Positions 39,725 through 52,599 of a stretch of 64,000 bases of DNA are shown piece by piece. Position 1 is the stretch's first letter. Each line of letters opens with the position of its first letter. This DNA is from Heterodontus francisci (lineage: Eukaryota): contig NC_090388.1 in NCBI RefSeq assembly GCF_036365525.1, forward strand, positions 65,466,258 to 65,530,257. The letters are read 5' to 3'. Under the pieces are notes generated by a model. It was not told the origin of the DNA and did not search any database. It saw nothing but the letters and a program-made list of their open reading frames with translations. The position numbers and the translations under genes are program-made.

Positions 39725-40397
39725 GGGCCAAAATTTTGTGAGGCCCCCTGAGGCGGAATCAGTGGTGGGAGTGGGCACAAAGTATCACAACAGATGGCTG
39801 GAGGACGTGACAGGGCAAAGGGCCTATCATCCAGAGATCTTCCTGGGAGTGGGATAGGCTGACGACAGCCTTCCCGCCCAGAGGCCAATTGAGGCCCTTA
39901 AGTGGCCAATTAACAGTCAATTACGGGCCTCTTCCCGCTACCACTGGGCTCTTACCAGTGTTGCGGGGGTGGGGGCTCCGCCACACTGGGAGGACGCCTT
40001 GTAAAATGAGGCACCCTCCCTGCGGGCTTGGGGGCAGGGTCCCTCATTCATGGGCAATTTGTGGGCCACAGAGGACCCCTACCTGGAACCAATACACCCC
40101 CCCCCCGGATCCTCCTCCCCCTGGATTGCATGACCAACCCACTCGCCGGGGCCAGTTCGGAAAGCCACAGTGACCCTGCCTCACCTACCTCTGTTCCAGG
40201 GTTCCACCGCTGATTCCAACACCTTTAAAGGGATGGGGTTCCCACCTCCTTAAATGGTGATTCAAAAAGACCGGAGGATTGCTCCGGGGGGGCGGGGCGG
40301 GTGCAGGCGGGTGAGGGCACAAAAAGGCAGAGGTGGGGTTCCCCCTGCTTTTTCAGCCTGGTGCCAGGAGCCTCCCCTCCAGCATAATATACAGCCC
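39725..40397. mobile_element. Harbinger-type MITE, diverged
   Basis: GC-rich block bounded by GGGCCAAAATTTT and AATATACAGCCC (imperfect TIR). Confidence 0.5.
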
Positions 40398-40875
40398 TTG
40401 GTCACTAGGAACATGTGTAGGCCATTCAGCCCATCAAGCCTGCCTCACCATTCAATACGATCATGGCTGATCATCCACTTCAATGCCTTTTTCCCATATT
40501 ATCCTCATATCCCTTTATATCATTGGTATTTAGAAATCTGTCAATCTCTGCTTTAAACATACAACACATTAAACAGCCAACTAGCCAGTGACTCCTGCTG
40601 CCAATGTGTTTGTCAGGTGGTCAGCACTCAGCTAGACTTGAAGCCCTATTATCAAGTAGCTTATTAAAATTCATCCTCAAAGCTCACACTTGATGACTGG
40701 TCACTGGCGGAGGTGTGATAGGAGGGGCACAAAACCATACTGCAGCCAGGTGAAACCACCCAGGAGAACAGAGAGAGGAAAAACTGACAAGAGGGGCAAA
40801 ATGCATATATTTCTGAGCAAAGTGAACAAGAGTCTTAGCCACATGACTGATGTATAACTATCAGTGACGAATAAA

Positions 40876-41624
40876 GGGCTGAAATTTGTTCTGGGGTTGG
40901 GACCCTGACATCGGGTGCATTTCCACGTCACAATCCCACGTCACGTTGTGTTGCCACCTAACGCGATTTTTAGCGAGCAGGCCAATTAGTGGCCAAGGTG
41001 CAAGCTCACCATCCAATTAAGGATGGTGGGTGGGCTTCCAAGGCTGGAGAGCCAATAGGAGGCCCACCAGCACCCAGAGAGCGGCAACCCCAGCGAGGTG
41101 GGAGCTGCCGATTTAGGGAACAGAGAGAGAGAGAGAGAGAGGGCATCACAAGATGAAGCGCCCTCTGAAGACTTTTTAAAAACCTAAAACTTAAAAGGCC
41201 ACAGCTGCCATGTTGTCATCATGGAGGGGAGACACTTCCGTATGGTGGCCTGTGGCCACAACTGCAGCCATCTCACAATCGCAGCCATGGAATGGTGGGA
41301 AGTTAAAAATGCTAGATGGACCACTGCTGCCCGGTCTGCCGCTGGGAGAGTGCCTCCATTCATTGGCTGGGATTCGGCCTCAGTGGGGTGCCAAGCTGCT
41401 GATTGGAAAATAACAGTTGGCATCTGCACAGTGGCCTTAATAAAACTTTTGAGAGGCATAATTTGCTACCAACCGCTTGCAGCTGTCACCCCGCTGAACC
41501 AGGATGTTCAAAAATGACCCAGAGACAGGAACCTGCTGGCAAACTAGCACACCAGGCGGTGGCAGGCTATTGCGTGCCTGTCCACCTTCAGCCCTGCCTC
41601 TGTGGTTGTTTAAAATTTCAGCCC
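40876..41624. mobile_element. Harbinger-type MITE, 749 bp
   Basis: Perfect 12-bp TIR GGGCTGAAATTT / AAATTTCAGCCC. Flanks AAA/AAG. Confidence 0.8.
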
Positions 41625-42040
41625 AAGGTATTCATTGTTTCTATTGAACAACTGATCTCAATTTTACATTAGGCAGAAGGAAATGTATTACCAATTCCTT
41701 GAATCAGATCATTTTGCTTCTTGCTCCATTAATGTTTGGTGAAACTGCTTTCGATTTTTGATCTAAAAATGAGCCAGAGTTGTCGTGCACCATTTTTGAT
41801 GCAATAATGTTATGTAACACTAATTCATTTCAGTGCATTTCTCTCATTGTGTCATGTCAAACCAGGATAAAAAGTTTACCAAAATCTTTTTTATAAAAAT
41901 AGCACCCATTAAATTTGTTTGGATGTTGGTTCACTTATCCTTAATGAGTACCTTTTAAGAAGATATTTTATTAATTTGATCACCATCTCATATCTGAGAC
42001 TGTGAATCCTTTAGCAGGAGGCTGCTGAACAGGCCAGGTG

Positions 42041-42085
42041 CTTACCTGGCAGGGGAGAAGTCTTGATACTGCTCCCAGGGCCGAG
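42041..42085 (+). other. U1 snRNA-like segment in the Tx1 5' UTR (not an intact U1 gene)
   Basis: CTTACCTGGCAGGGGAGA (18 nt) equals vertebrate U1 nt 4-21, followed by TCCCAGGGC(C)GAG as in U1. No Sm site or 3' half of U1. Confidence 0.6.
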
Positions 42086-42749
42086 TGTAAGTTCCGAGTT
42101 GCGAGTGTGACGATCTTGGACGACAGTGGCGGATTGAGGGCAGCGGCAGTGATGCCAATACTGTAACAACTCAACGTTTTGAGCTATGGCTGCTGCAAGT
42201 GCCCGAGCTCCAGGCCAAAGAGTGTACAATATTGTCAGGGTGACAGTGAAGACTTTGGATGAAGGTTTGCCCGTGGACCGCACCATTTCTGTGAAGTGGG
42301 TCCTCTTTGAGTGCTGTGGTTTTGAAACTGCGGACATCTTCTGCCTGCAGGATTTCCCCAGCAGCGGATACTTCGATGTGACGTTTAAAAACGTCACGGG
42401 ATGCATAAAACTCCTGAACGTCTTCAAAGAGAGACGAAGCCAGGCACCGCTGTCGATCCTCATCGCGGAGCCTTTGTGTACTCTGCCAATGCAACGGAAC
42501 CAGGTAGCGACCATTCACATGTACAAACCCAAATCGCTGTGGTGGATGTGCTCACCTTCTTCGGCAGATACACTGAGTTGGATGGAAACAGCATGGAGGT
42601 CAAGGACCCATTTGGGATCAAGACAAGCAAACGGCAGGTCAGGGTGATCTTGAAGGTGGATGCCAATGGAGCCATCCTCCACCATCCTTCCAGCTTTACC
42701 ATTGGAGGAAGTCGAGGTTATTTAGTGTACGCAGGGCAGCCCAAAGTGT

Positions 42750-44617
42750 ATACGAGAGTATACTTCTGACTGGTAGCATGTCAGAATCCATGAGGAAAGG
42801 CATCATCACCCTCATCTACAAGATCTACAATCCCAGGCAGAAGAGGCACTCAGGTTAAAACCTCCCTGTACATGGACGACGTCGCCGTCTTCTGCTCGGA
42901 TCCGCTGTCCGTTTGCAGACTGATGAGCATCTGTGACCAGGTTCGAACTGGTCTCGGGAGCCAAAGTTAACCAAGGCAAGCGCGAGGCCATGTTCTTTTG
43001 GAACTGGGCTGACCAATCCTTTGTCCCCTTTGCCGTCAGATCAGACTTCCTGAAGGTGTTGGGGATATGGTATGGAAGGGCCGATGTGTGCACCAAAACC
43101 TGGAAAGAGCCAGTAGCTAGGGTACACCATAAGCTGAGCATGTGGGAGCAGCGATCTCTCTCCATTGTGGATAAGAACCTGGTCATCAGATGCGAGACGC
43201 TCACGTTGTTGCTGTACGTGGCGCAGGTCTGGCCCATACCCCACTCCTGCGCTGTGGCGGTCACCCGAGCCATTTTCTGCTTCATCTGGGGATCCAAAAT
43301 GAACTGGGTCTGGAGGGACACGATGTTCAAACCTCTGGTTAAGGGTGTAAAAAATGTACCCAACATCGCCCTCATCCTGATGACCACCTTCGTGTGCGGC
43401 TGCATCAAGCTGTGCGTACACAAACAAAAACAAGAAATGCTGGAATCACTCAGCAGGTCTGGCAGCATCTGTGGAAAGAGAAGCAGAGTTAACGTTTCGG
43501 GTCAGTGACCCTTCTTCGGAACTGACAAATATTAGAAAAGTCACAGATTATAAACAAGTGAGGTGGGGGTTGGGCAAGAGATAACTGTGCGTAGATCCCC
43601 AATACGCAAAAACCAAGTGTCACTACGTGCTGAGGTTCTATCTGTCCCAGGTGTTGTGAAGGATGGCCTGGTCACATTGCCGCGGAACGCTTCATCCAGC
43701 TGGACCGTGCCTATCCTTTGTGGAAAGGTTTCTGCGGAAAAACACCTTTGACCACCAATCCATCAGGCAGTGGTCTGCACGGAATGTCCTCAAAGCCCTA
43801 CGGGAAAAGGAGATGGTGGATCCTGTCGGATGGTTCCCCGAGCAGACTGCCAAAGTCATTTAGCCTCATCACCAGAACTCTGAAACTCGCACCAAGATGT
43901 AGCTTGAGTTGTGGTGAGAAGAGCCCTCCCTGTCAGATCCTTCCTGCACGCTTGGAGTCTCACATCCTCCATACAATGCCCTCGAGGTGGCTGTGGTGGG
44001 GAAGAGACAGTTGCCCACCTCTTTCTGGAAAGTGTCTTTGCAAAACAGGTGTGGAAAGAGATGCAGTGGTTTTTGTTGAGGTTCAACCCAAGCAGCTCTG
44101 TAACACAGGAGTCTGTGCTCTACGGGCTGTTCCCGGGGATGCACACTGAGATAAACATCAACTGCTGCTGGAGGACTATCAATTCGGTGAAAGACGCCCT
44201 TTGGTCTGCCCGAAACCTGCTGGTCTTCCAGTGCAAAGAGTTGTCCACAACCGAGTGTTGCAGACTGGCACATTCCAAGGTCCAGGACTACGTGCTGAGG
44301 GACGCACTAAAGCTTGGGGCAGCCACAGCAAAGGCTCAATGGAGAAAGACCACAGTGTAAGGTCCCCCCACCAAGCTGAACTGAGGGGCTGGATCCATGG
44401 GAAACCCCTCGAACTGTATCCAGAAAATATTTGTTTACTGTAAACTGTACATGGCATGTAAAACGAAATGGAAGGGTTGTGAGGCAACTCACTCCTGTAT
44501 TGAAGGAAACTGATCTCCTTTGCACTTTTTGTATTGTTTGACTTGGTGCTTTTTGGAACTGTTTTGTAATGTATTTTTTACAGATTTTCATGAATAAAGT
44601 ATATTTTGGGAAAAAAA
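42750..44617 (+). mobile_element. Tx1 LINE inner copy: ORF2 3' part, 3' UTR, poly(A)
   Basis: RKGIITLIYK joined to SLYMDDV, SGAKVN and CPRGGCGGEETVAHLF. AATAAA at ~44593 and A8 tail. TSD AGCCCAAAGTGT at 42738-42749 and 44618-44629. Confidence 0.9.
43419..43584 (-). mobile_element. Penelope-derived mini-element with complete minimal hammerhead-like motif
   Basis: Minus strand reads AGTT-CCGAAGA-AGGGTCACTGACCC-GAAA-CGTT-AACT. 9-bp TSD CTGTGCGTA at 43410-43418 and 43585-43593. Confidence 0.8.
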
Positions 44618-46509
44618 AGCCCAAAGTGTGTCGCACCTGCAGCAAAACTGGTGATTTGGCCGTCAACTGCAGTGCAACCTTCTGCCAGAGCTCCAAGCAG
44701 GAAGGACATTTGACAAAGGACTGCAAAAAGAGCAAGTGCTGCAACCTGTGTGGGGAGGGTGGCCAGCTTTACAAGGCCTTCCCAAAACACTGTGCTATCT
44801 ATGTGCAGGCCATATAAGCAGGAGCATCAATCAGGGCTGCTGCAAAGGAAATTTGCACCCGACCCTCCACAAAGATCCTGAGTGCACAAGATAATGGGAA
44901 AGAGGGCATGGCATGCTAACAAAACGTAAAGGAGTTCAAAAATTGGCCAAACCCCTCCAGGGAAAGCAGAGTCGATGGAAGAGGAGGCAGCACCAAACAA
45001 GGAGAGTGGCAAATTGTGAAAAGTAAAAATACAAAGAAGAGAACAGAAAAGAAGGGGAGAGCTGCCCTGCAAACTAGCAGCAAGAAGCGGCTGATGTCCC
45101 AGACAGAGACCAGTGGCTGCTCCTTCTCGGGTGAGGAAGGGCACGAAAGCTATCACCAATAAAAAAAGCGGTAAAACACCAAGAAAGTGGAGGAGACAAA
45201 TGGCCCTCAGCTGAGAAACACTGGAATCAGCAAAGGGGAAAGGGAACATCTGCTTCGGGACGCCAGGAGCAGTGATGCGACCAGCGCCCCCCCCCCCACC
45301 CCCTCTCCCCAGCTCCAGGAATGTGGGAGCAGCAATGCAACCAGTGGCCCCCAGCTCCGGGATATCGTGAGCAGCAACGGCTTCGACGAGAAGCAGTGTG
45401 GAACAACAACATCATCTGAGCACAAGGCAACCCTTCCCGAGTGCACGACCCCCTTGACCTCACCCAGACTGAACAATGCTCCTGTGGCAGAGCAGGACTG
45501 GTTTCTCAGCCCTGCAAAAGTGCAACAGTTTGCAACCACAGGTATGCAGGGGCATACCCAAGGAGGTGGAACTTGCATAGACTTTCGGACTGGTAATCTA
45601 AAATCTTTAAAATGGTTTTAAAAATTGCCTCTATTAACCTGCATAGCGTTAAAGCCACTATGCAATGTGTTTCGACCTTGGGTTACCTGGACAAAATCAA
45701 AGCTGACCTGCTATTTCTGCAGGAGTGTGCGATCCCGCACCTCAGCACTTACAGACAATGGTCAAGGTGGTGGTCCCATGGGCTATCGATTTGGTCAGGG
45801 GGAAATGATTCCCATTCCTCTGGCCTGGGTATTCTGTTGCAGGGAGGCAACTTCACCATCTCCGAAGTTAAGGAGGTGGTGGTTGATCACCTCCTCGTAG
45901 CAGATGTAATGTACAACAATGCTCTGCTCTGGTTAAACGACGTGTACGACCCGGCTCAACACAGCGAGCAGCTGACCATCTTCCAGCAGCTCTCACTGCT
46001 GTTGGCGACATCCAGGCTGGTCATTCTAGGCAGTGACTTCAACTGCATCATCAATGCAGCTCGATGATCCGGCAGGAACATCAGCAAATTGGACGCCATG
46101 TCCAGACTCCTTTTACTGAAGCATCACACAGGGAAAAAAACTTGAGACAGAGACAAGCACTGTTGGCACAATAACCTTTAATCACAGCACATCAATATCA
46201 GTCATGGAGACACCCATAATACCAAGTCACTTTTTTATGCAATGTGCATATTGCAAAGAGAAGAAAATAGGGCAACAGAAGCCTCAACCCTTTGATATAA
46301 ATAAGAATAGAGAAGGCAGTAATCTCATCAAGAGGTGTCAGATTATATAGTTTGAGTCTTTATATGTCACCTGATCTCTGCGTTGAGATTATAATCTTCA
46401 TATTACATTAAAGTATCCTATTTTTTAAAAATCTATTGTCCCCTTTGACAGAGGTTTTATTTGTTTTTGAGTTAATTTCCACACTAACAGTGAGTGTTGG
46501 AGGGGCAAT

Positions 46510-47210
46510 GGGCTGTTTGTGAAATGCGTGTTATTGGTGAGCAATAATGTTTACATGAAAAGTTTGATGCAACATTGCAGGCCAGCAAAACAATTAAAAA
46601 TGCTAATAAAGCACTGGGATTTATTTCTAGGGGTAGAGAATTTGAAAGTAATGAAGTTATATTAACTTGTATAGTACCACACTGGAGTACAATATACAGT
46701 TCTGGTCTGCATAGTATTAAAAAAAGGGCATAGAAGCATTGGAGAAAGTACAAAAGAAATTTACAAGGATGGTACCAGAACTTGGAGATTACAGCTATCG
46801 AGAAAGATTGAACAGGTTGTTTTTTTTTCTATAGAGGAGACATGAAATCTTAAAATCTCTGAATGGGTTGGGCAGGGTAGATGTGGAGAAAATGTTTGTG
46901 CTTGTGGGAGAATCCAAACTAGGGGTTATAAATGCAAGATAGTTAAGAATAAATCCAATAAGGAAACATTTCTTCACTCAGAGAGTGGTTAGAATGTGGA
47001 ACACACCAGTACAGGAAATGGTTGATGTAAATAGCTTAGATACTTTCAAAAAGAAACTAGACGAGTCCATGAGAAAAAAGGGAATAGAAAAATATGTTGA
47101 AAGGCTGAGATGATGTAGATGAAACAGGAGAAGACACGTGTAGAGTACAGAACCACACACACTGGTTGGGCTGAATGGCCTGTATCTGTGTGTATATTGT
47201 ATGTAATTTA
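46510..47210 (+). mobile_element. Old CR1 3' fragment
   Basis: CCACACTGGAGTAC..CAGTTCTGGTC, CTTCACTCAGAGAGTGGTTAGAATGTGGAA and GGGCTGAATGGCCTGT tail. Confidence 0.8.
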
Positions 47211-47351
47211 TATATCGTTGAGACATCATTTGCAATCGGTTATCAGGGAATTCCATTGATAATGGAATGGTCAATTCCTGAATTCTTTCTGCAAAGATCA
47301 AATTCTAATTCATCTGTAATCTTGTGCTTGATGCTATATTTTCATTTGCAG

Positions 47352-47889
47352 GGCCCTGAAACTTCTCATTCTGGTTACTTGGAAATCTGCAATAAAGAGA
47401 AGTGGGATAAATCCAATCCATTCTGCTGCTGAAGGTGGCAGTGCCCAGTGCCTCGAATTACTGATTGAAAGTGGATTTGACGTTAATGCACTTTTAGATG
47501 AAGAGATCGCCAAAAGCTATGATGACAAACGGAGAACCGCTCTGTTTATTGCCGTGTCTAATAATGATATTGCATGCACCGAACTCCTGCTGAAAGGGGG
47601 CGCATTACCAAACAGAGATCCACTGTCCTGCCTCCTTGTAGCAGTAAGAGCGGGGAATCATGAACTGGTGCGTTTGCTTCTACGTTATGGTGCCAATGTC
47701 AACAGCTACTTCATGCTGATTAATGACACTCACTTTCCCACTGCTATCCAGTATGCTGTAAATGATGAAATGATGCTGAGGCTCTTGCTCAATAACGGCT
47801 ACAATGTGCCGATGTGTTTTGACTGCATACACTCTGATGGCAGGTTTCTTCCCTGGCCTATGATTGAACCAAAGTCCTATATCACCTCA
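47352..47889 (+). CDS. ASB15: ASB15 coding exon 7
   Basis: ttgcag|[45 protein letters not shown]...[17 protein letters not shown]...[25 protein letters not shown]|gtaagt, 538 nt. Confidence 0.95.
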
Positions 47890-48074
47890 GTAAGTAACCC
47901 ACTCCTAGTTCGTATTGCATAGTAAGGGATTTGAAAAAAGAATTGTAGCAACCCTTTTAGAATGAATTGGTTTTCCAATGCAATCATATAAAGTGACCAC
48001 AGTCACTGGAATTCAAAGTAATTCAGTGCATGTGAAGTGTTTGAGAAGTTTCTAAGAGATGTGATAAGGTAAAA

Positions 48075-48510
48075 GAAAAAAAAAACTTGCATTTTTATAA
48101 CAACTTTCATGACCTCAGACTATTCTAAAGTACAGCCAATGAAGTCCTTTGAAGCATATTGTAATATAGGAAAATACAACAGCCGATTTGCCATTTCCTA
48201 CAAACAACAATGAGATAAATATCAATTAAAATATTTTGGTGGTGTTGGTTCAGGATTAAAAGCTGCTTAAGTCGCCATGAAAAATCCCCAGCTTTTCCTT
48301 TAATAATGCTGTTGGATCTTTTACATCCACCTGAGAGGGCAGATGGATCCCTCATCCGAAAGACGACACCCCCGACGGTGTAGCACTCCTTCAGTACTGC
48401 ACTGGAGTGCCAGTCTGGAATATGTACTCAGGTTTCCAGAGTGGGAGCTTGAACTCACAACCCACTGACTCAGAGGCGAGAGTATGAGCACCAAGCCAAT
48501 GCTGACAACC
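48075..48510 (-). mobile_element. DeuSINE (SacSINE1-like), near full length
   Basis: tRNA-like head (CTCGCCTCTGAGTCAG..GAGTTCAAG), Deu domain (CCAGTGCAGTACTGAAGGAGTGCT...GTCTTTCGGATGAG...CTGCCCTCTCAGGTGGATGTAAAAGATCC) and L2/CR1-type tail. Confidence 0.8.
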
Positions 48511-49684
48511 AATGAATTTGCTTGATCAGGCAATAATGCACTGCAGAAATAATGCACTGCAGATTAACTAATGTTACTAATGTCCCCTGGTGGCTTGGAA
48601 TGAACTTGAAACAGAAAAGTTCAGGATTGTGCGGACCGAGACTGCTGCTGGCCAAGGTTGGCTCCAGGTTGGCTTCCCTGGTGAAGGCAGATTTCCTCAG
48701 ACATTTTTAAGTAGATGTGCCTCGGCTTGTAGTTACAGCTGCATAGGTAAGGATGGGTGTTGTCAGTTTGCATCTGGTACATTTAACTTGCCTCATTTCC
48801 CCTATCATATTCATCCTCTTCTGTTATGAAATGAGGCATGGTTGATAGATAATTTTATAGTAAAGGATCCTCTGGGGGAGAGTGATCATAATATATTAGA
48901 ATTTCATATTACATTTGAGAGTGGTATGGTTAATCTCAAAACTAGAGTCTTAAATTTAAATAAACAATGGCAAAGATTTAAATAAATAATTCATAATTCT
49001 CAATGAATATACATTCCCTTGAGGAATGGAAATGTGGTATATCCATGGCGAAGTAGAAACGATAAGGATATTACTGGATGTAAAGAAATTTACAATGTTG
49101 CTAGTGGTTTGGGAGTAGTAAGCTTGTAATTTGGTAGGGTTTTAAAAGTCAGCAAAGAATGACCAAGAAATTGATAAAGAGAGAGAATCTAGAATATGAA
49201 AATAAACTAGCAAGAAATATAAAAGAACTTTTACAAGTATGCAAAAAGGAAGAGATTGTGAAAATAAACATGGGTCCCTCAGGCAGAGACAAGAGAACCT
49301 ATAATGAGGGATAACAAAATGGCTGAGGTGTTAAACAAATAGATTTTGTCTGACTTCATAGTAGAAGCCACAAAAGCCACAAAATTCGATAGGGCCTAAA
49401 AACAGTACAGGGATTGTAATGTGCTATTAATCTGCTTCTGTTCCTTCCAATACAGAGAGCTTGCAAACTTCATGCTGCCTGCTCATTTACCGGATTATAG
49501 TGTATAGCTAGCACTAATTGCATGGTTGAGTGGCTGCACCCCTGAGCGGGCGATGCTAACAAGTTCAAGCTAGCCTTCACTGTTTAAAGCCAGTGTGTAT
49601 CTCTCAAATGGGAGCTGCATTTTATCTGGAGCAGGTGCTGGGAGAGGCTGGGGGAAAGTGTCTGGCCCGCAAGAAGAGTAACTA

Positions 49685-51420
49685 ATGGTGCAACAAGAGG
49701 GAGAGCAGACTCCGCAGTTCTCCAACGCAGCACTGGAGGCCTACAGTAGGTGGACGGGAGAGGAGAGGTCCTCTATCCACAGAGGACCAGGATGCCCTTC
49801 AGGCAGACACTGTGAAGGCAGTGAGAGCTGATAACTGTCACGGTCAATGTCCCAAGGACCTGGATGTAGTGCCGCAAGAAGTTAAATAAGCTCACACAAG
49901 TGGTCAAGGTCAGTGAATGCATCTTCAAATCCCATATCTCACCAACTGCACTATTAACCCCACATTCTGCTCATGCACCACACCCCATCACTCACCTACC
50001 AATAATCTCATTAATCATGACTCATCCCTCACATTCATAGCTTCACCTCACCCTCACACACTTAACACTGTTGCAAGCCTCACTCTTACATCTTACAGCT
50101 TGCACACACTGCCAGCTATTCAAGCATGACAGCCATATCATCCAAACACATTACACCACACTCACTGACACACTTCTTTCCCTCTTGCAGGACAAGGTGT
50201 CACATAACCGGAGGAAGGAGGGGCTAACTGACAGGGAACAGACGCGCCTGCATGTCCTCACTGTCATTGGAGCAGCCAACACTGAGGACATGACCAGCAG
50301 TGGGACTGAAAGCATCGAAGCTGATGGTCTGTTCATACCTAATCCTCCTCCTCACATCTCACTTCCCCCTCACCCCACAATGTCTTCTACGCAAGCTGCA
50401 GATGGCGTAAGTATGCACCTCTTGGTTTTCTTCCCCTCCCCACACTGCAACCCTACCCTTGTGCTTTTCTCTTTTCAGATACCTAAGAACTGCCATCTGG
50501 CCAGGCAGTGGTGGAACAGCAGGAAGACAGTGATGAAGATGAAACTCCACCATTCGCTCTTGACACACGCAGCCAGCAGTACAGATACTGACACTTTAGA
50601 GGCTAGTTTAGAGGCGGGATCTGCACATCATGAGACACCAGGCACAAGTGGCTTGCAACCAGGGCAGGGGCAAGGATAGCATAGGTGCCAGCTTGATAGA
50701 GGGAGAGGTCACACACAAGTTCTATTCAAGAGGACTCAGATAATGAATTTGATGGGGCGGCCTATGGAAAAAGGCTGATGGGTATGCAAACAGAAATGCT
50801 TGGTGCATTGGCAGGCCTGCCAGAAAGCCTGTGATCACTGTCAAGGAGCATGGAGGGGTCCAGCACCAACCATTTCCATTGCAGCGCAAGCAGTAGCCAG
50901 CCAATGTCTGAGTGCTGTAGTGAAAGCTCAGACTGCTGTCATGCAATGTCAGCCTCCTGCCACGGACGCTAAGAATGCTGCCATTGTGGTCGCAGATACC
51001 AGTCTTCAAAGGGGCTTGCAGGGTCTCACAGCGGTCCAACAATCTGTTCTCCAACACATTGCTAGGATTGCTAAGGTGCTGCCTAGGGGGAGTGACAGTG
51101 GCTCCGTGAAACATGACCCTGCTATCCTCTCTCAGGATGATAGCATTCGTCCTCCCACTACTGTCACTTCACCAGTGCTCTTGCTGTTGCTCATCAGCCA
51201 GCCAACTCAGACTGCTGCTGCCCATGCCAAGGTGGTCCAGTCCGAAGCTTGGCCTTCTGGGGCTGGAGTTGCATGTAGCCATTCTGCAAAACCATCTGCA
51301 GTCTCCCCCACTGAAAGTCAGCAGCCTTCCACCAGCCACTGGAGTAGCACAGTGTAGGAACACTAGGACAGGCAAAGGCACACACAAGACAGGCACTAAG
51401 GTATTGATCAAGGGTGATTA
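49685..51420 (+). pseudogene. Harbinger Myb/SANT-like DNA-binding protein gene (spliced, disrupted)
   Basis: PQFSNAALEA...EVLYP...PRTWM*CRKKLNKLTQVVK|gtcagt (donor 49908). Acceptors at 50190 and 50478. Stops and frameshifts present. Confidence 0.7.
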
Positions 51421-51693
51421 GTTGACTTTTGTATAGAATATTAGATGGTTTTATTGATTTAGTTGGTTTGGAATGTTTGTTTTGTGGTGACTTTTATTTC
51501 AGCATTGTGGCCAAGAAGACTCTGTGATATACAGTAACAGAGGGAAGGGAAGGTGGGGGACTGTTGCTGAATGGGAAATTGGGCTTGGTTGCATTCACTG
51601 GTACTGCAGTCAGATACGCCAACCACCAACAGCCTGGCAGAAAAGGGATGTAGTGGTTGCCTCCTCGCTTCCTCCAACTCCGCCTCTTCCTCC

Positions 51694-52599
51694 TCAGCTG
51701 TTTGCCCTATAGCTGGTGGCAAGGGCTGTTGCCCACAGGATTAGGAGGTTGTGCAGGATGCAGCAGATCACAGTGAGTTGTGACACATAATCTAGCGAGT
51801 ACTGCCGGGCTCCTCCAGAGTGGTCCAGGCAGCGGAAGCATTGCTTAAGCACCCCAGTGGTCTGCTCGCTATTTCGTGTGGCAGCATGGCTCACATTATA
51901 CGCATACTGTCCATGTGTGAGTGGGTTGCACACTGGACTCATGAGCCAGGTGGTCAGTGGATAGCCCTTGTCACTCAGTAGGCATCTTCTGGTTTCTGTT
52001 GGTGGCTCAAATGCTGTTGGTACAGAAGACTGGTGCAGAATAAAGGCATCATGACTGCTGCCAGGATAGGGGGCATTGACCTGCCTGTTCTGAGTATGAT
52101 CACACACCAGCTGGACAGTGAGGGAGTGGATCCCTTTGACATTGCGGTACATCCCTGAATTTATGTATGGTGTTCGCAAAGCGGCATATGCAGTCAGTGG
52201 CACCCTGCACCATGGGAAAGTACACTATCCTGACAAAGTTGTGTGTTCACTCCATTACTTCTATCTGGAAAGAGAGAATGCCAATGTATTACTCTCTCTT
52301 TGTGTATAAAACATCAATGACAGTGGATGGCAAACTGTGAGCTGTTGGAGATGTCGCCTGCTGCAGCCTGGAAGGATGCCAGTGCTAAGAAGCTCAAGGC
52401 CACAGTCACCTTTACAGCCCCTGGCAGTGCTGTCCTCGCCCTGCTCCGAGGCTGAATGGCTGCCTTCAACAGGTGGCTTAGTGAAATGGAGATGTCGCAC
52501 GCACTGTTCCTCGCTGAGGTTGAGATAGGAGAATTCCTCCCTGAGGACCTTGGGTGGATATGGCCTCCTACTGAGAGCCCTTCTCCACCGCCTCCTCAT
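51694..52599 (-). pseudogene. Harbinger (HARBI1-like) DDE transposase, disrupted
   Basis: NVKGIHSLTVQLVCD, YPGSSHDAFIL, SDKGYPL, GVLKQCFRCLD and CCILHN. The N-terminal LSEEQCVRHLHF lies in a separate ORF. Confidence 0.9.

What the first reader, a model, noticed from the sequence alone, without database searches (positions are those of the whole stretch)
42013..42190. U1 snRNA-like, structured leader in the 5' UTR of a shark Tx1 LINE
Seen: about 145 nt upstream of the ORF1 ATG is CTTACCTGGCAGGGGAGA (42041-42058), followed by TCCCAGGGC(C)GAG (42073-42085). Known: vertebrate U1 begins AUACUUACCUGGCAGGGGAGAUACC... and has UCCCAGGGCGAG after stem-loop I, so both blocks match in order. Seen: the spacer is shorter than in U1 but still folds (GGGAG-A-AGT...ACT-G-CTCCC). 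The splice-site-recognising 5' end can be locked in a perfect 7-bp hairpin with the upstream sequence (GCCAGGT-GCTT-ACCTGGC). Known: some Tx1 families target snRNA genes (Keno in U2), and U1/U2-headed SINEs (SINEU) occur in crocodilians. Inference: this is an autonomous-type LINE that captured a U1 head as a fixed, structured leader, or it descends from a U1-targeting lineage co-transcribed with U1. I do not know of this being described in sharks.
Basis: partly seen in the sequence, partly recalled or inferred. Interest (0 to 1): 0.78.

Follow-up and report, generated by a model that had tools for sequence, protein, structure and literature searches.

The report
Jumping gene swapping U1/U2 RNA heads
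A broken jumping gene begins with the front end of the splicing RNA U1 joined to a scrap of U2 RNA; young relatives sit inside real U1 and U2 genes right behind their start sites, so the family likely gains these heads, and its transcription, by landing in those genes.

Summary
The U1-like block is real and is the 5' terminus of a decayed Tx1 LINE: U1 nt 4-56, shortened, joined to a U2-derived remnant. The upstream hairpin arm is flank (1 of 75 copies). 57 of 60 sampled U1 5' ends lead into this ORF1. The lineage is Keno-like: 384 3' junctions at U2 nt ~38, 7 at U1 nt 38-40, of about 14,900 3' ends. Two of 36 promoter-linked U1 genes are split there with 16-17 bp duplications ending at nt 54-55, about where this head ends. 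Fifteen full-length young copies lie behind U2 promoters. An ORF1 tree gives U2-to-U1 in this lineage and U1-to-U2 in the sister lineage. Best reading (0.7): heads come from insertion into snRNA genes and co-transcription from their promoters; transcription was not shown. U1-headed Tx1 is published for crocodilians; I found no paper on U1-gene insertion by a LINE. This scan noted the same system earlier on other DNA of this and other genomes. New variant of a known kind.

The parts
42033..42039 (+).
   Evidence: Alignments to other copies stop at about 42041; arm present in 1 of 75 copies
42041..42085 (+). U1-derived head, U1 nt 4-56, 8 nt shorter net; 5' terminus of the element; descends from a longer variant-U1 head
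42053..42076 (+). Shortened stem-loop I: lower stem kept, most of the 10-nt loop region lost
   Evidence: Predicted fold; comparison with long-form heads and host U1
42084..42098 (+). Remnant of an older U2-derived head; shares 2 nt (AG) with the end of the U1 head; holds GTAAGT (42087-42092), predicted to pair with the U1 5' end
   Evidence: Same sequence follows U2 nt ~5-34 in U2-headed copies L139-L142; fold. On its own the window remnant aligns only weakly to U2 (score 13)
42099..42185 (+). Rest of the 5' UTR, shared with subfamily A and D copies
42186..42749 (+). ORF1, 5' part (ZCCHC3-type RNA-binding domain), frameshifted near 42515
   Evidence: PF23057 E 8e-14
42750..44618 (+). Nested, younger, 5'-truncated and internally deleted copy of the same lineage (ORF2 pieces, 3' UTR, A tail)
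   Evidence: 86-92% to the young intact copy against 74-79% for the host pieces; zf-RVT E 6e-08
44619..44629 (+). Second copy of the 11-bp target-site duplication of the nested insertion (first copy 42739-42749)
   Evidence: Read from the sequence
44630..45612 (+). ORF1, 3' part, decayed
45613..46111 (+). Start of ORF2 (endonuclease region), broken off; no 3' end or outer duplication found in the window
   Evidence: 79% to the intact copy L161; no Pfam match of its own at E 0.001

Best explanation
This is the 5' end of a decayed Tx1 LINE whose U1 head was likely gained when a U2-headed ancestor inserted into a U1 gene at about nt 38-56 and was then likely transcribed from that gene's promoter. 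Shown: the head lies inside the target-site duplications of dispersed copies; the lineage inserts at U2 nt ~38 (main target) and at U1 nt 38-40 (rare); full-length young copies lie directly behind U1 or U2 upstream sequence plus the first 53-54 nt of the snRNA; dispersed copies reach back to snRNA nt 1 and no further; some dispersed copies carry downstream U2-array DNA and a new A tail. Inferred: the LINE has no promoter of its own and the copies inside snRNA genes are the sources; the transcript starts at snRNA nt 1, so the snRNA 5' piece is copied with the element; landing in the other snRNA gene puts a new head in front of the old one, which then decays, so the 5' UTR is a layered record of U2/U1 switches. 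Inferred and weaker: when head and target are the same snRNA, the cDNA end anneals to the upstream target, as described for R2 (recalled), which would re-attach the promoter and keep only the first ~21 nt under constraint; the head here came from a now-lost U1 variant; the U1 5' end is masked in cis by the downstream GTAAGT.
For: Split U1 genes: 36 promoter-linked U1 starts; 34 coincide with full-length U1 hits (matched by eye) and both others are interrupted by this Tx1 with duplications of U1 nt 38-54 and 40-55. L161 is U1 upstream sequence + U1 1-54 + U2 4-52 + intact ORF1 (520 aa) and ORF2 (1136 aa, APE + RT): the same U1-then-U2 order as the window. The window-type head ends at U1 nt 56 and double-headed copies at about nt 51-52. 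7 junctions in 6 loci at the U1 site against 0.002-0.012 expected for 50-300 such sites and 14,904 3' ends. 384 junctions at the U2 site. 15 full-length young copies directly behind U2 upstream sequence + U2 1-53, each with one head only, in 160 kb of C41 picked from the hit list. Dispersed copies: 37 of 75 U1 heads match to nt 1, best identity of the 30 nt upstream to the U1 gene's is 12 of 30; 28 of 30 young copies have a U2 head, 8 reach nt 1, best upstream identity 14 of 30. Target-site duplications of about 12-17 bp abut the head in about 14 of 24 other copies with a 3' end (read by eye, several with mismatches). 7 of 20 U2-junction loci outside C41 run on into young U2-array sequence, 3 ending in a clean new A tail. 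Tree of 90 ORF1 rows: U2-headed D basal to U1-headed A (100/99); U2-headed young E nested in U1-headed B (100/94) and still holding a decayed U1 3-32 layer.
Against: No transcript start was observed. No copy of the window's subfamily, or of B or C, remains behind a U1 promoter (0 of 36); the pattern needs the present-day promoter, so old sources could be missed. B and C heads end at U1 nt 32 and L099 at nt 48, not at nt 52-56. The shortened head is shared along a ladder of A sub-branches, so a changed head was passed on many times, which needs the untested annealing step or another promoter. Most insertions are off target (391 of about 14,900 3' ends match the two sites). RNA-level joining to U1 does occur in this genome: 6 of 8 lower-scoring U1 hits and L082 are U1 fused to a short repeat. 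The tree root is the midpoint, the bootstrap had not settled, and D has only 3 rows. The lock is weak in subfamily A: duplex energy beats shuffles in 1 of 23 (with the window row mislocated), GTAAG is kept in 14 of 23.
Confidence: 0.7

Rival explanations
1. The U1 head was added at the RNA level: the reverse transcriptase switched template from Tx1 RNA to U1 snRNA (or the RNAs were ligated), perhaps helped by U1 pairing to the 5'-splice-site-like GTAAGT, and one such chimera became a source copy. This is the route proposed for SINEU.
For: Proposed in PMC4494074. 2-nt microhomology at the U1/U2 joint. Splice-donor-like motifs follow the head in A (14 of 23), B (30 of 34) and C (13 of 18). Heads ending at nt 32 and 48. 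U1 fused to a short repeat in 7 loci.
Against: Does not explain U1 genes split with duplications ending at nt 54-55, next to the end of this head, nor how a promoterless chimera is transcribed from nt 1. The U1-short-repeat fusions join at nt ~158 or 71, not at 52-56.
Confidence: 0.2
2. The head is a selected, self-sufficient leader: dispersed copies start transcription at the head from an internal promoter, and the element keeps stem-loop I and masks the U1 5' end for its own benefit.
For: Long-form heads L007, L291, L068 keep 10-11 of 11 stem-loop I pairs, with changes on both sides against host U1 at pair 26-39 (all three) and 23-42 (two). U1 nt 4-11 are predicted paired more than in shuffled controls: B 0.74 against 0.44 (34 of 34), A 0.68 against 0.51 (18 of 23); window copy 0.93. 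Changed heads persisted over several sub-branches.
Against: Old full-length U1 pseudogenes L294 and L298 also show changed stems, and the same variant head sits on two separate ORF1 clades, so a variant U1 gene is the simpler source. Four other long heads score 7 of 11 in the gapless count. The loop is lost in most A copies. C shows no clear masking (0.52 against 0.49). Young sources lie in arrays. The U1 layer decays once buried under U2.
Confidence: 0.08
3. A chance U1 fragment next to a LINE.
For: No Rfam match.
Against: 313 exact matches of a 16-nt U1 5' piece against 6 for the control; 57 of 60 sampled are followed by this ORF1.
Confidence: 0.01

Closest known systems
Crocodilian Tx1-Mar families with snRNA heads: Tx1-2_Crp, Tx1-2B_Crp, Tx1-4_AMi (U1) and Tx1-11_Crp (U2) (PMC4494074; parts 1-4 of 5 read, figures and supplements not seen)
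   Same: Tx1 LINEs with U1- or U2-derived 5' ends; that group clusters with Keno.
   Different: They prefer a Mariner transposon or LTR elements as target and are old (85-87% to consensus). Here the lineage has young, intact copies inside U2 and U1 genes, which supplies a DNA-level source for the heads.
Keno (Tx1 clade, APE, U2-specific; Kojima and Fujiwara 2004, not seen; known through passages of PMC4640811 and PMC4494074)
   Same: APE-type endonuclease + RT; 3' junction at U2 nt ~38-39, as stated for Keno and Utopia; tandem insertions.
   Different: Leaky: about 2.6% of counted 3' ends are at the U2 site; also inserts at the matching position of U1; dispersed copies carry U1 or U2 heads. 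Keno is listed from frogs, fish, lancelet and hydra. No Keno sequence was compared.
SINEU-1, -2, -3 of crocodilians (PMC4494074)
   Same: Repeated 5' addition of U1 and U2 pieces; no internal promoter known; transcription left as an open question.
   Different: SINEU is short and non-coding, and head addition was ascribed to template switching. Here the layers are on a coding LINE; L162 (U1 gene + Tx1 3' UTR) and L075 (dispersed U1 head + 3' UTR) look like SINEU precursors.
R2 (28S rDNA) co-transcription; Dada-U1 DNA transposons
   Same: R2 depends on the target's transcription (cited in PMC4494074); Dada-U1 inserts in U1 genes.
   Different: R2 has a restriction-like endonuclease and trims the co-transcript with a ribozyme; here the snRNA piece is kept. 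Dada is a DNA transposon.

Membership tests
Tx1-clade LINE | ORF1 with CCHC knuckles, ORF2 with APE endonuclease and RT, A tail, target-site duplication | tested here: met
   Intact relative L161; window pieces; duplications
Tx1-clade LINE | Placement in the Tx1 clade on an RT tree with reference elements | not tested
Keno | Insertion with U2 resuming at nt ~39 | tested here: met
   384 junctions; array maps show U2 resuming mostly at nt 38, some 33-35; site from PMC4640811. Met by the young subfamily E, not by the window copy
Keno | Strict specificity for U2 genes | tested here: not met
   384 of about 14,900 3' ends; U1 site also used. The 3'-end motif may count more than one subfamily
Keno | Common descent with the described Keno elements | not tested
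   No Keno sequence in hand
U1-headed Tx1 (Tx1-Mar type) | U1-derived sequence at the 5' terminus of many copies | tested here: met
U1-headed Tx1 (Tx1-Mar type) | Preference for Mariner-N4-like targets | not tested
   Flanks of dispersed copies looked unrelated to each other but were not compared with a repeat library
SINEU | Short (<500 bp), non-coding retroposon with snRNA head | tested here: not met
   The window element codes for ORF1 and ORF2 pieces
U1 snRNA gene or full pseudogene | Full-length match to RF00003 and upstream promoter | tested here: not met
   No Rfam match; flank unlike U1 upstream sequence
Co-transcribed site-specific LINE (R2-like) | Transcript starts at the host gene's start site | not testable with these tools
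   Only assembled contigs were on offer; indirect DNA evidence

The most novel reading that the evidence does not exclude
A promoterless LINE lineage lives by alternating between U2 and U1 genes as hosts, making 5-kb coding RNA from snRNA promoters, re-attaching a promoter at each insertion through homology of its head, and masking a captured U1 5' end with an in-cis splice-site-like complement; its 5' UTR preserves extinct U1 variants, and truncated insertions in U1/U2 genes are how SINEU-type elements are born and transcribed.
Probability: 0.35. Interest if true: 0.75.

Novelty: new variant of a known kind. Interest (0 to 1): 0.55.

Why it matters
How snRNA-headed retroelements gain their heads and are transcribed without an internal promoter is an open question in the paper that described them (PMC4494074). 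This genome holds the intermediates side by side: intact elements behind U2 and U1 promoters, dispersed copies that begin at snRNA nt 1, and layered heads that can be ordered on a tree. That makes the promoter-borrowing model testable by 5' RACE or a reporter. [quoted passage not shown] 3 legend also names U5) and imply that snRNA promoters can yield long polyadenylated coding RNA.

Tried and rejected
Rfam scan of 40000-50000: no match. Upstream 7-bp lock: rejected, 1 of 75; the versions of this test were faulty (window row mislocated; wrong register) and were replaced. Search for a surviving variant U1 gene with the long head's sequence: 2 matches at up to 3 mismatches, both Tx1 heads; none among the 8 lower-scoring U1 hits. 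Origin of the second half of B and C heads: for three B rows an inverted copy of the U1 5' end scored better (1, 4 and 44 of 1000 shuffles as high) than a U2 remnant (51-355); three C rows gave no consistent answer; left open. Outer target-site duplication and 3' end of the window's host copy: not found in the window. Sequencing runs: only contigs, RNA status mostly a guess; the young ORF1 is covered in organisms coded A and B, and the window's head had no cover, which proves nothing since human-like contigs are dropped. Protein atlas: ZCCHC3/CCHC clusters only, no help on lineage. 21 of 133 loci with under 400 nt of ORF1 were left out of the tree, and only 11 of 33 young rows were used. Supplements of PMC4494074 could not be read; its Fig. 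1B and S1-S6 may show crocodilian junctions that bear on the nt 52-56 argument. Repbase was not available, so the family may be catalogued.

Full report
Observation. Against U1 genes taken from the same genome, 42041-42058 equals U1 nt 4-21 and 42073-42085 matches nt 45-56; the alignment scores 47.5 against at most 39.0 in 2000 shuffles. Rfam finds nothing at E <= 1, as only a shortened third of U1 is present. The copy itself is dead: ORF1 is frameshifted and split by a younger nested copy (42750-44618, 11-bp duplication), and ORF2 ends at about 46111.

The block is the element's 5' end. Of 29 other loci from the search with the window's 5' region, 22 align back to 42038-42046 and no further, with unrelated flanks. 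The proposed upstream hairpin arm is therefore flank; it occurs in 1 of 75 U1-headed copies. A 16-nt piece of the U1 5' end occurs 313 times against 6 for the control. I fetched 60 of the first 100 listed places (C1-C7, leaving out three already held and merging two neighbours); 57 lead into this ORF1. In copies with both ends, duplications of about 12-17 bp abut the head in about 14 of 24 (read by eye), so the head travels inside the retrotransposed unit.

Layers. Four copies carry a U2 5' piece where the window carries U1, followed by the same UTR. The window's 42084-42098 is the tail of that U2-derived head, joined to U1 nt 56 over 2 shared nt. I grouped the heads as A (window type, long and short), D (U2, same UTR as A), C and B (U1 1-32), double U1 heads, and the young E (707 pattern matches), which reads U2 1-53, then a decayed U1 3-32, then a B-type remnant. 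On a tree of 90 ORF1 rows (midpoint root, bootstrap not fully settled) D is basal to A (100/99) and E is nested in B (100/94): U2 to U1 in one lineage, U1 to U2 in the other.

Targets. 3' ends are followed by U2 from nt ~38 in 384 places and by U1 from nt 38-40 in 7 places at 6 loci, out of 14,904 matches of the 3'-end motif; chance would give 0.002-0.012 at the U1 site. These patterns fix the position, so the unbiased evidence is smaller: of 36 U1 starts with the promoter-proximal motif, 34 are full-length genes and both others are split at this site, with duplications of U1 nt 38-54 (L161, two tandem copies, the first with intact ORFs) and nt 40-55 (L162, 3' UTR only). L161 reads U1 upstream sequence, U1 1-54, U2 4-52, Tx1: a present-day case of the order seen in the window. 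In 160 kb of the U2 arrays, chosen from the hit list, 15 full-length copies lie directly behind U2 upstream sequence and a single U2 1-53.

Sources. Dispersed copies reach snRNA nt 1 (37 of 75 U1 heads, a count that includes chance matches of 1-3 nt; 8 of 30 young copies) and none resembles the promoter upstream (best 12 and 14 of 30 nt). Of 20 U2-junction loci outside C41, 7 run on into young U2-array sequence and 3 of them end in a clean new A tail, which fits read-through from array copies. Older loci keep U1 nt 40-54/55 as a spacer between tandem pieces (L184-L186) or U1 40-164 plus A tail with no U1 5' part upstream (L183); they may have moved from U1 genes in one piece or been built in place, which I cannot tell apart.

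Mechanism. Most likely (0.7) the LINE has no promoter, inserts about 38 nt into U2 (usually) or U1 (rarely) with a duplication ending near nt 53-56, is transcribed from the snRNA start, and so copies the snRNA 5' piece into its progeny. Landing in the other snRNA gene adds a new head over the old one. Insertion sites, layers and end points are shown; transcription is inferred. Three points do not fit simply: B and C heads end at nt 32 and L099 at nt 48; no A, B or C copy remains behind a promoter; and the shortened A head persisted over several sub-branches, which needs a homology-guided 5' junction (suggested by the single head in 15 of 15 array copies, untested) or another promoter. Template switching to U1 RNA (0.2) remains open, and U1 fused to a short repeat in 7 loci shows that such joining occurs here.

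Structure. Long A-type heads L007, L291 and L068 keep 10-11 of 11 stem-loop I pairs with changes on both sides against host U1; L024 keeps 9 and four others 7 in a gapless count. Two old U1 pseudogenes also have changed stems, and the variant head sits on two ORF1 clades, so a lost U1 variant is the simpler source; no such gene survives at up to 3 mismatches. Folded without flank, the window's U1 nt 4-11 pair with the downstream GCCGAGTGTAAG (probability 0.93). Across copies the masking exceeds shuffled controls clearly in B (0.74 against 0.44, 34 of 34), modestly in A (0.68 against 0.51, 18 of 23) and hardly in C; by duplex energy only 1 of 23 A rows beats shuffles. It is a lead, not a result.

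What is known. PMC4494074 (parts 1-4 of 5 read; figures and supplements not seen) reports crocodilian Tx1 families with U1 or U2 heads, recurrent head addition in SINEU, template switching as the proposed route, and transcription as an open question. PMC4640811 (passages and section 6) gives the U2 site shared by Keno and Utopia and lists the snRNA-targeting elements known in 2015. PMC8869645 (passages) adds nothing on LINEs in U1. Kojima and Fujiwara 2004 was not seen. Six searches listed no paper on a non-LTR element inserting in U1 genes or on these heads in sharks; subscription papers and Repbase are outside that library. This scan's earlier notes describe the same system on other DNA of this genome and in other genomes; they are unchecked notes, read after my reading was formed.

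Verdict. Real; a new variant of a known kind. The head as such is known, the lock hairpin as proposed is not a family feature, and the value lies in the intermediates that make promoter borrowing and U1/U2 switching testable. Interest 0.55.

Noticed in passing
window 42739-42749 / 44619-44629; L150, L153, L159: 4 of 41 long copies examined carry a nested insertion of the same lineage whose 3' junction falls within about 6 nt of one ORF1 site just before the zinc knuckles: a possible self-insertion hotspot.
   Followed up: partly
L292, L293, L295, L296, L297, L298, L082: U1 cut at about nt 158 (nt 71 in L082) and joined with varying junctions to the 5' end of one short repeat that looks like a tRNA-derived SINE (recalled, not tested): repeated independent U1-SINE chimeras.
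   Followed up: partly
L075:297-610 and L162: A dispersed unit of U1 3-47 + Tx1 3' UTR + A tail, and a U1 gene holding only a Tx1 3' UTR: both look like SINEU-type precursors.
   Followed up: partly
L294, L298: Full-length old U1 pseudogenes with a different stem-loop I; some B heads (L088, L115, L127) share the L294-type letters, hinting that heads were refreshed from U1 variants of their time.
   Followed up: partly
G000:C41:6268001-6368000: U2 tandem array (about 579-bp unit) heavily filled with young Tx1 copies, including repeated 5'-inverted insertions that seem to have been amplified with the array.
   Followed up: no
L007, L009, L015, L055, L086, L115, L213, L214, L222, L225: Full-length copies often sit right behind the A tail of another copy with a short spacer: head-to-tail stacks away from snRNA genes.
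   Followed up: no
window 47332-47922 (+): Large ankyrin-repeat exon of a host gene 1.2 kb downstream, on the same strand as the LINE.
   Followed up: no
window 50041-52224: Open frames that look like a decayed Harbinger-type transposon (nuclease-like frame at 51694-52224, minus strand; judged by eye).
   Followed up: no
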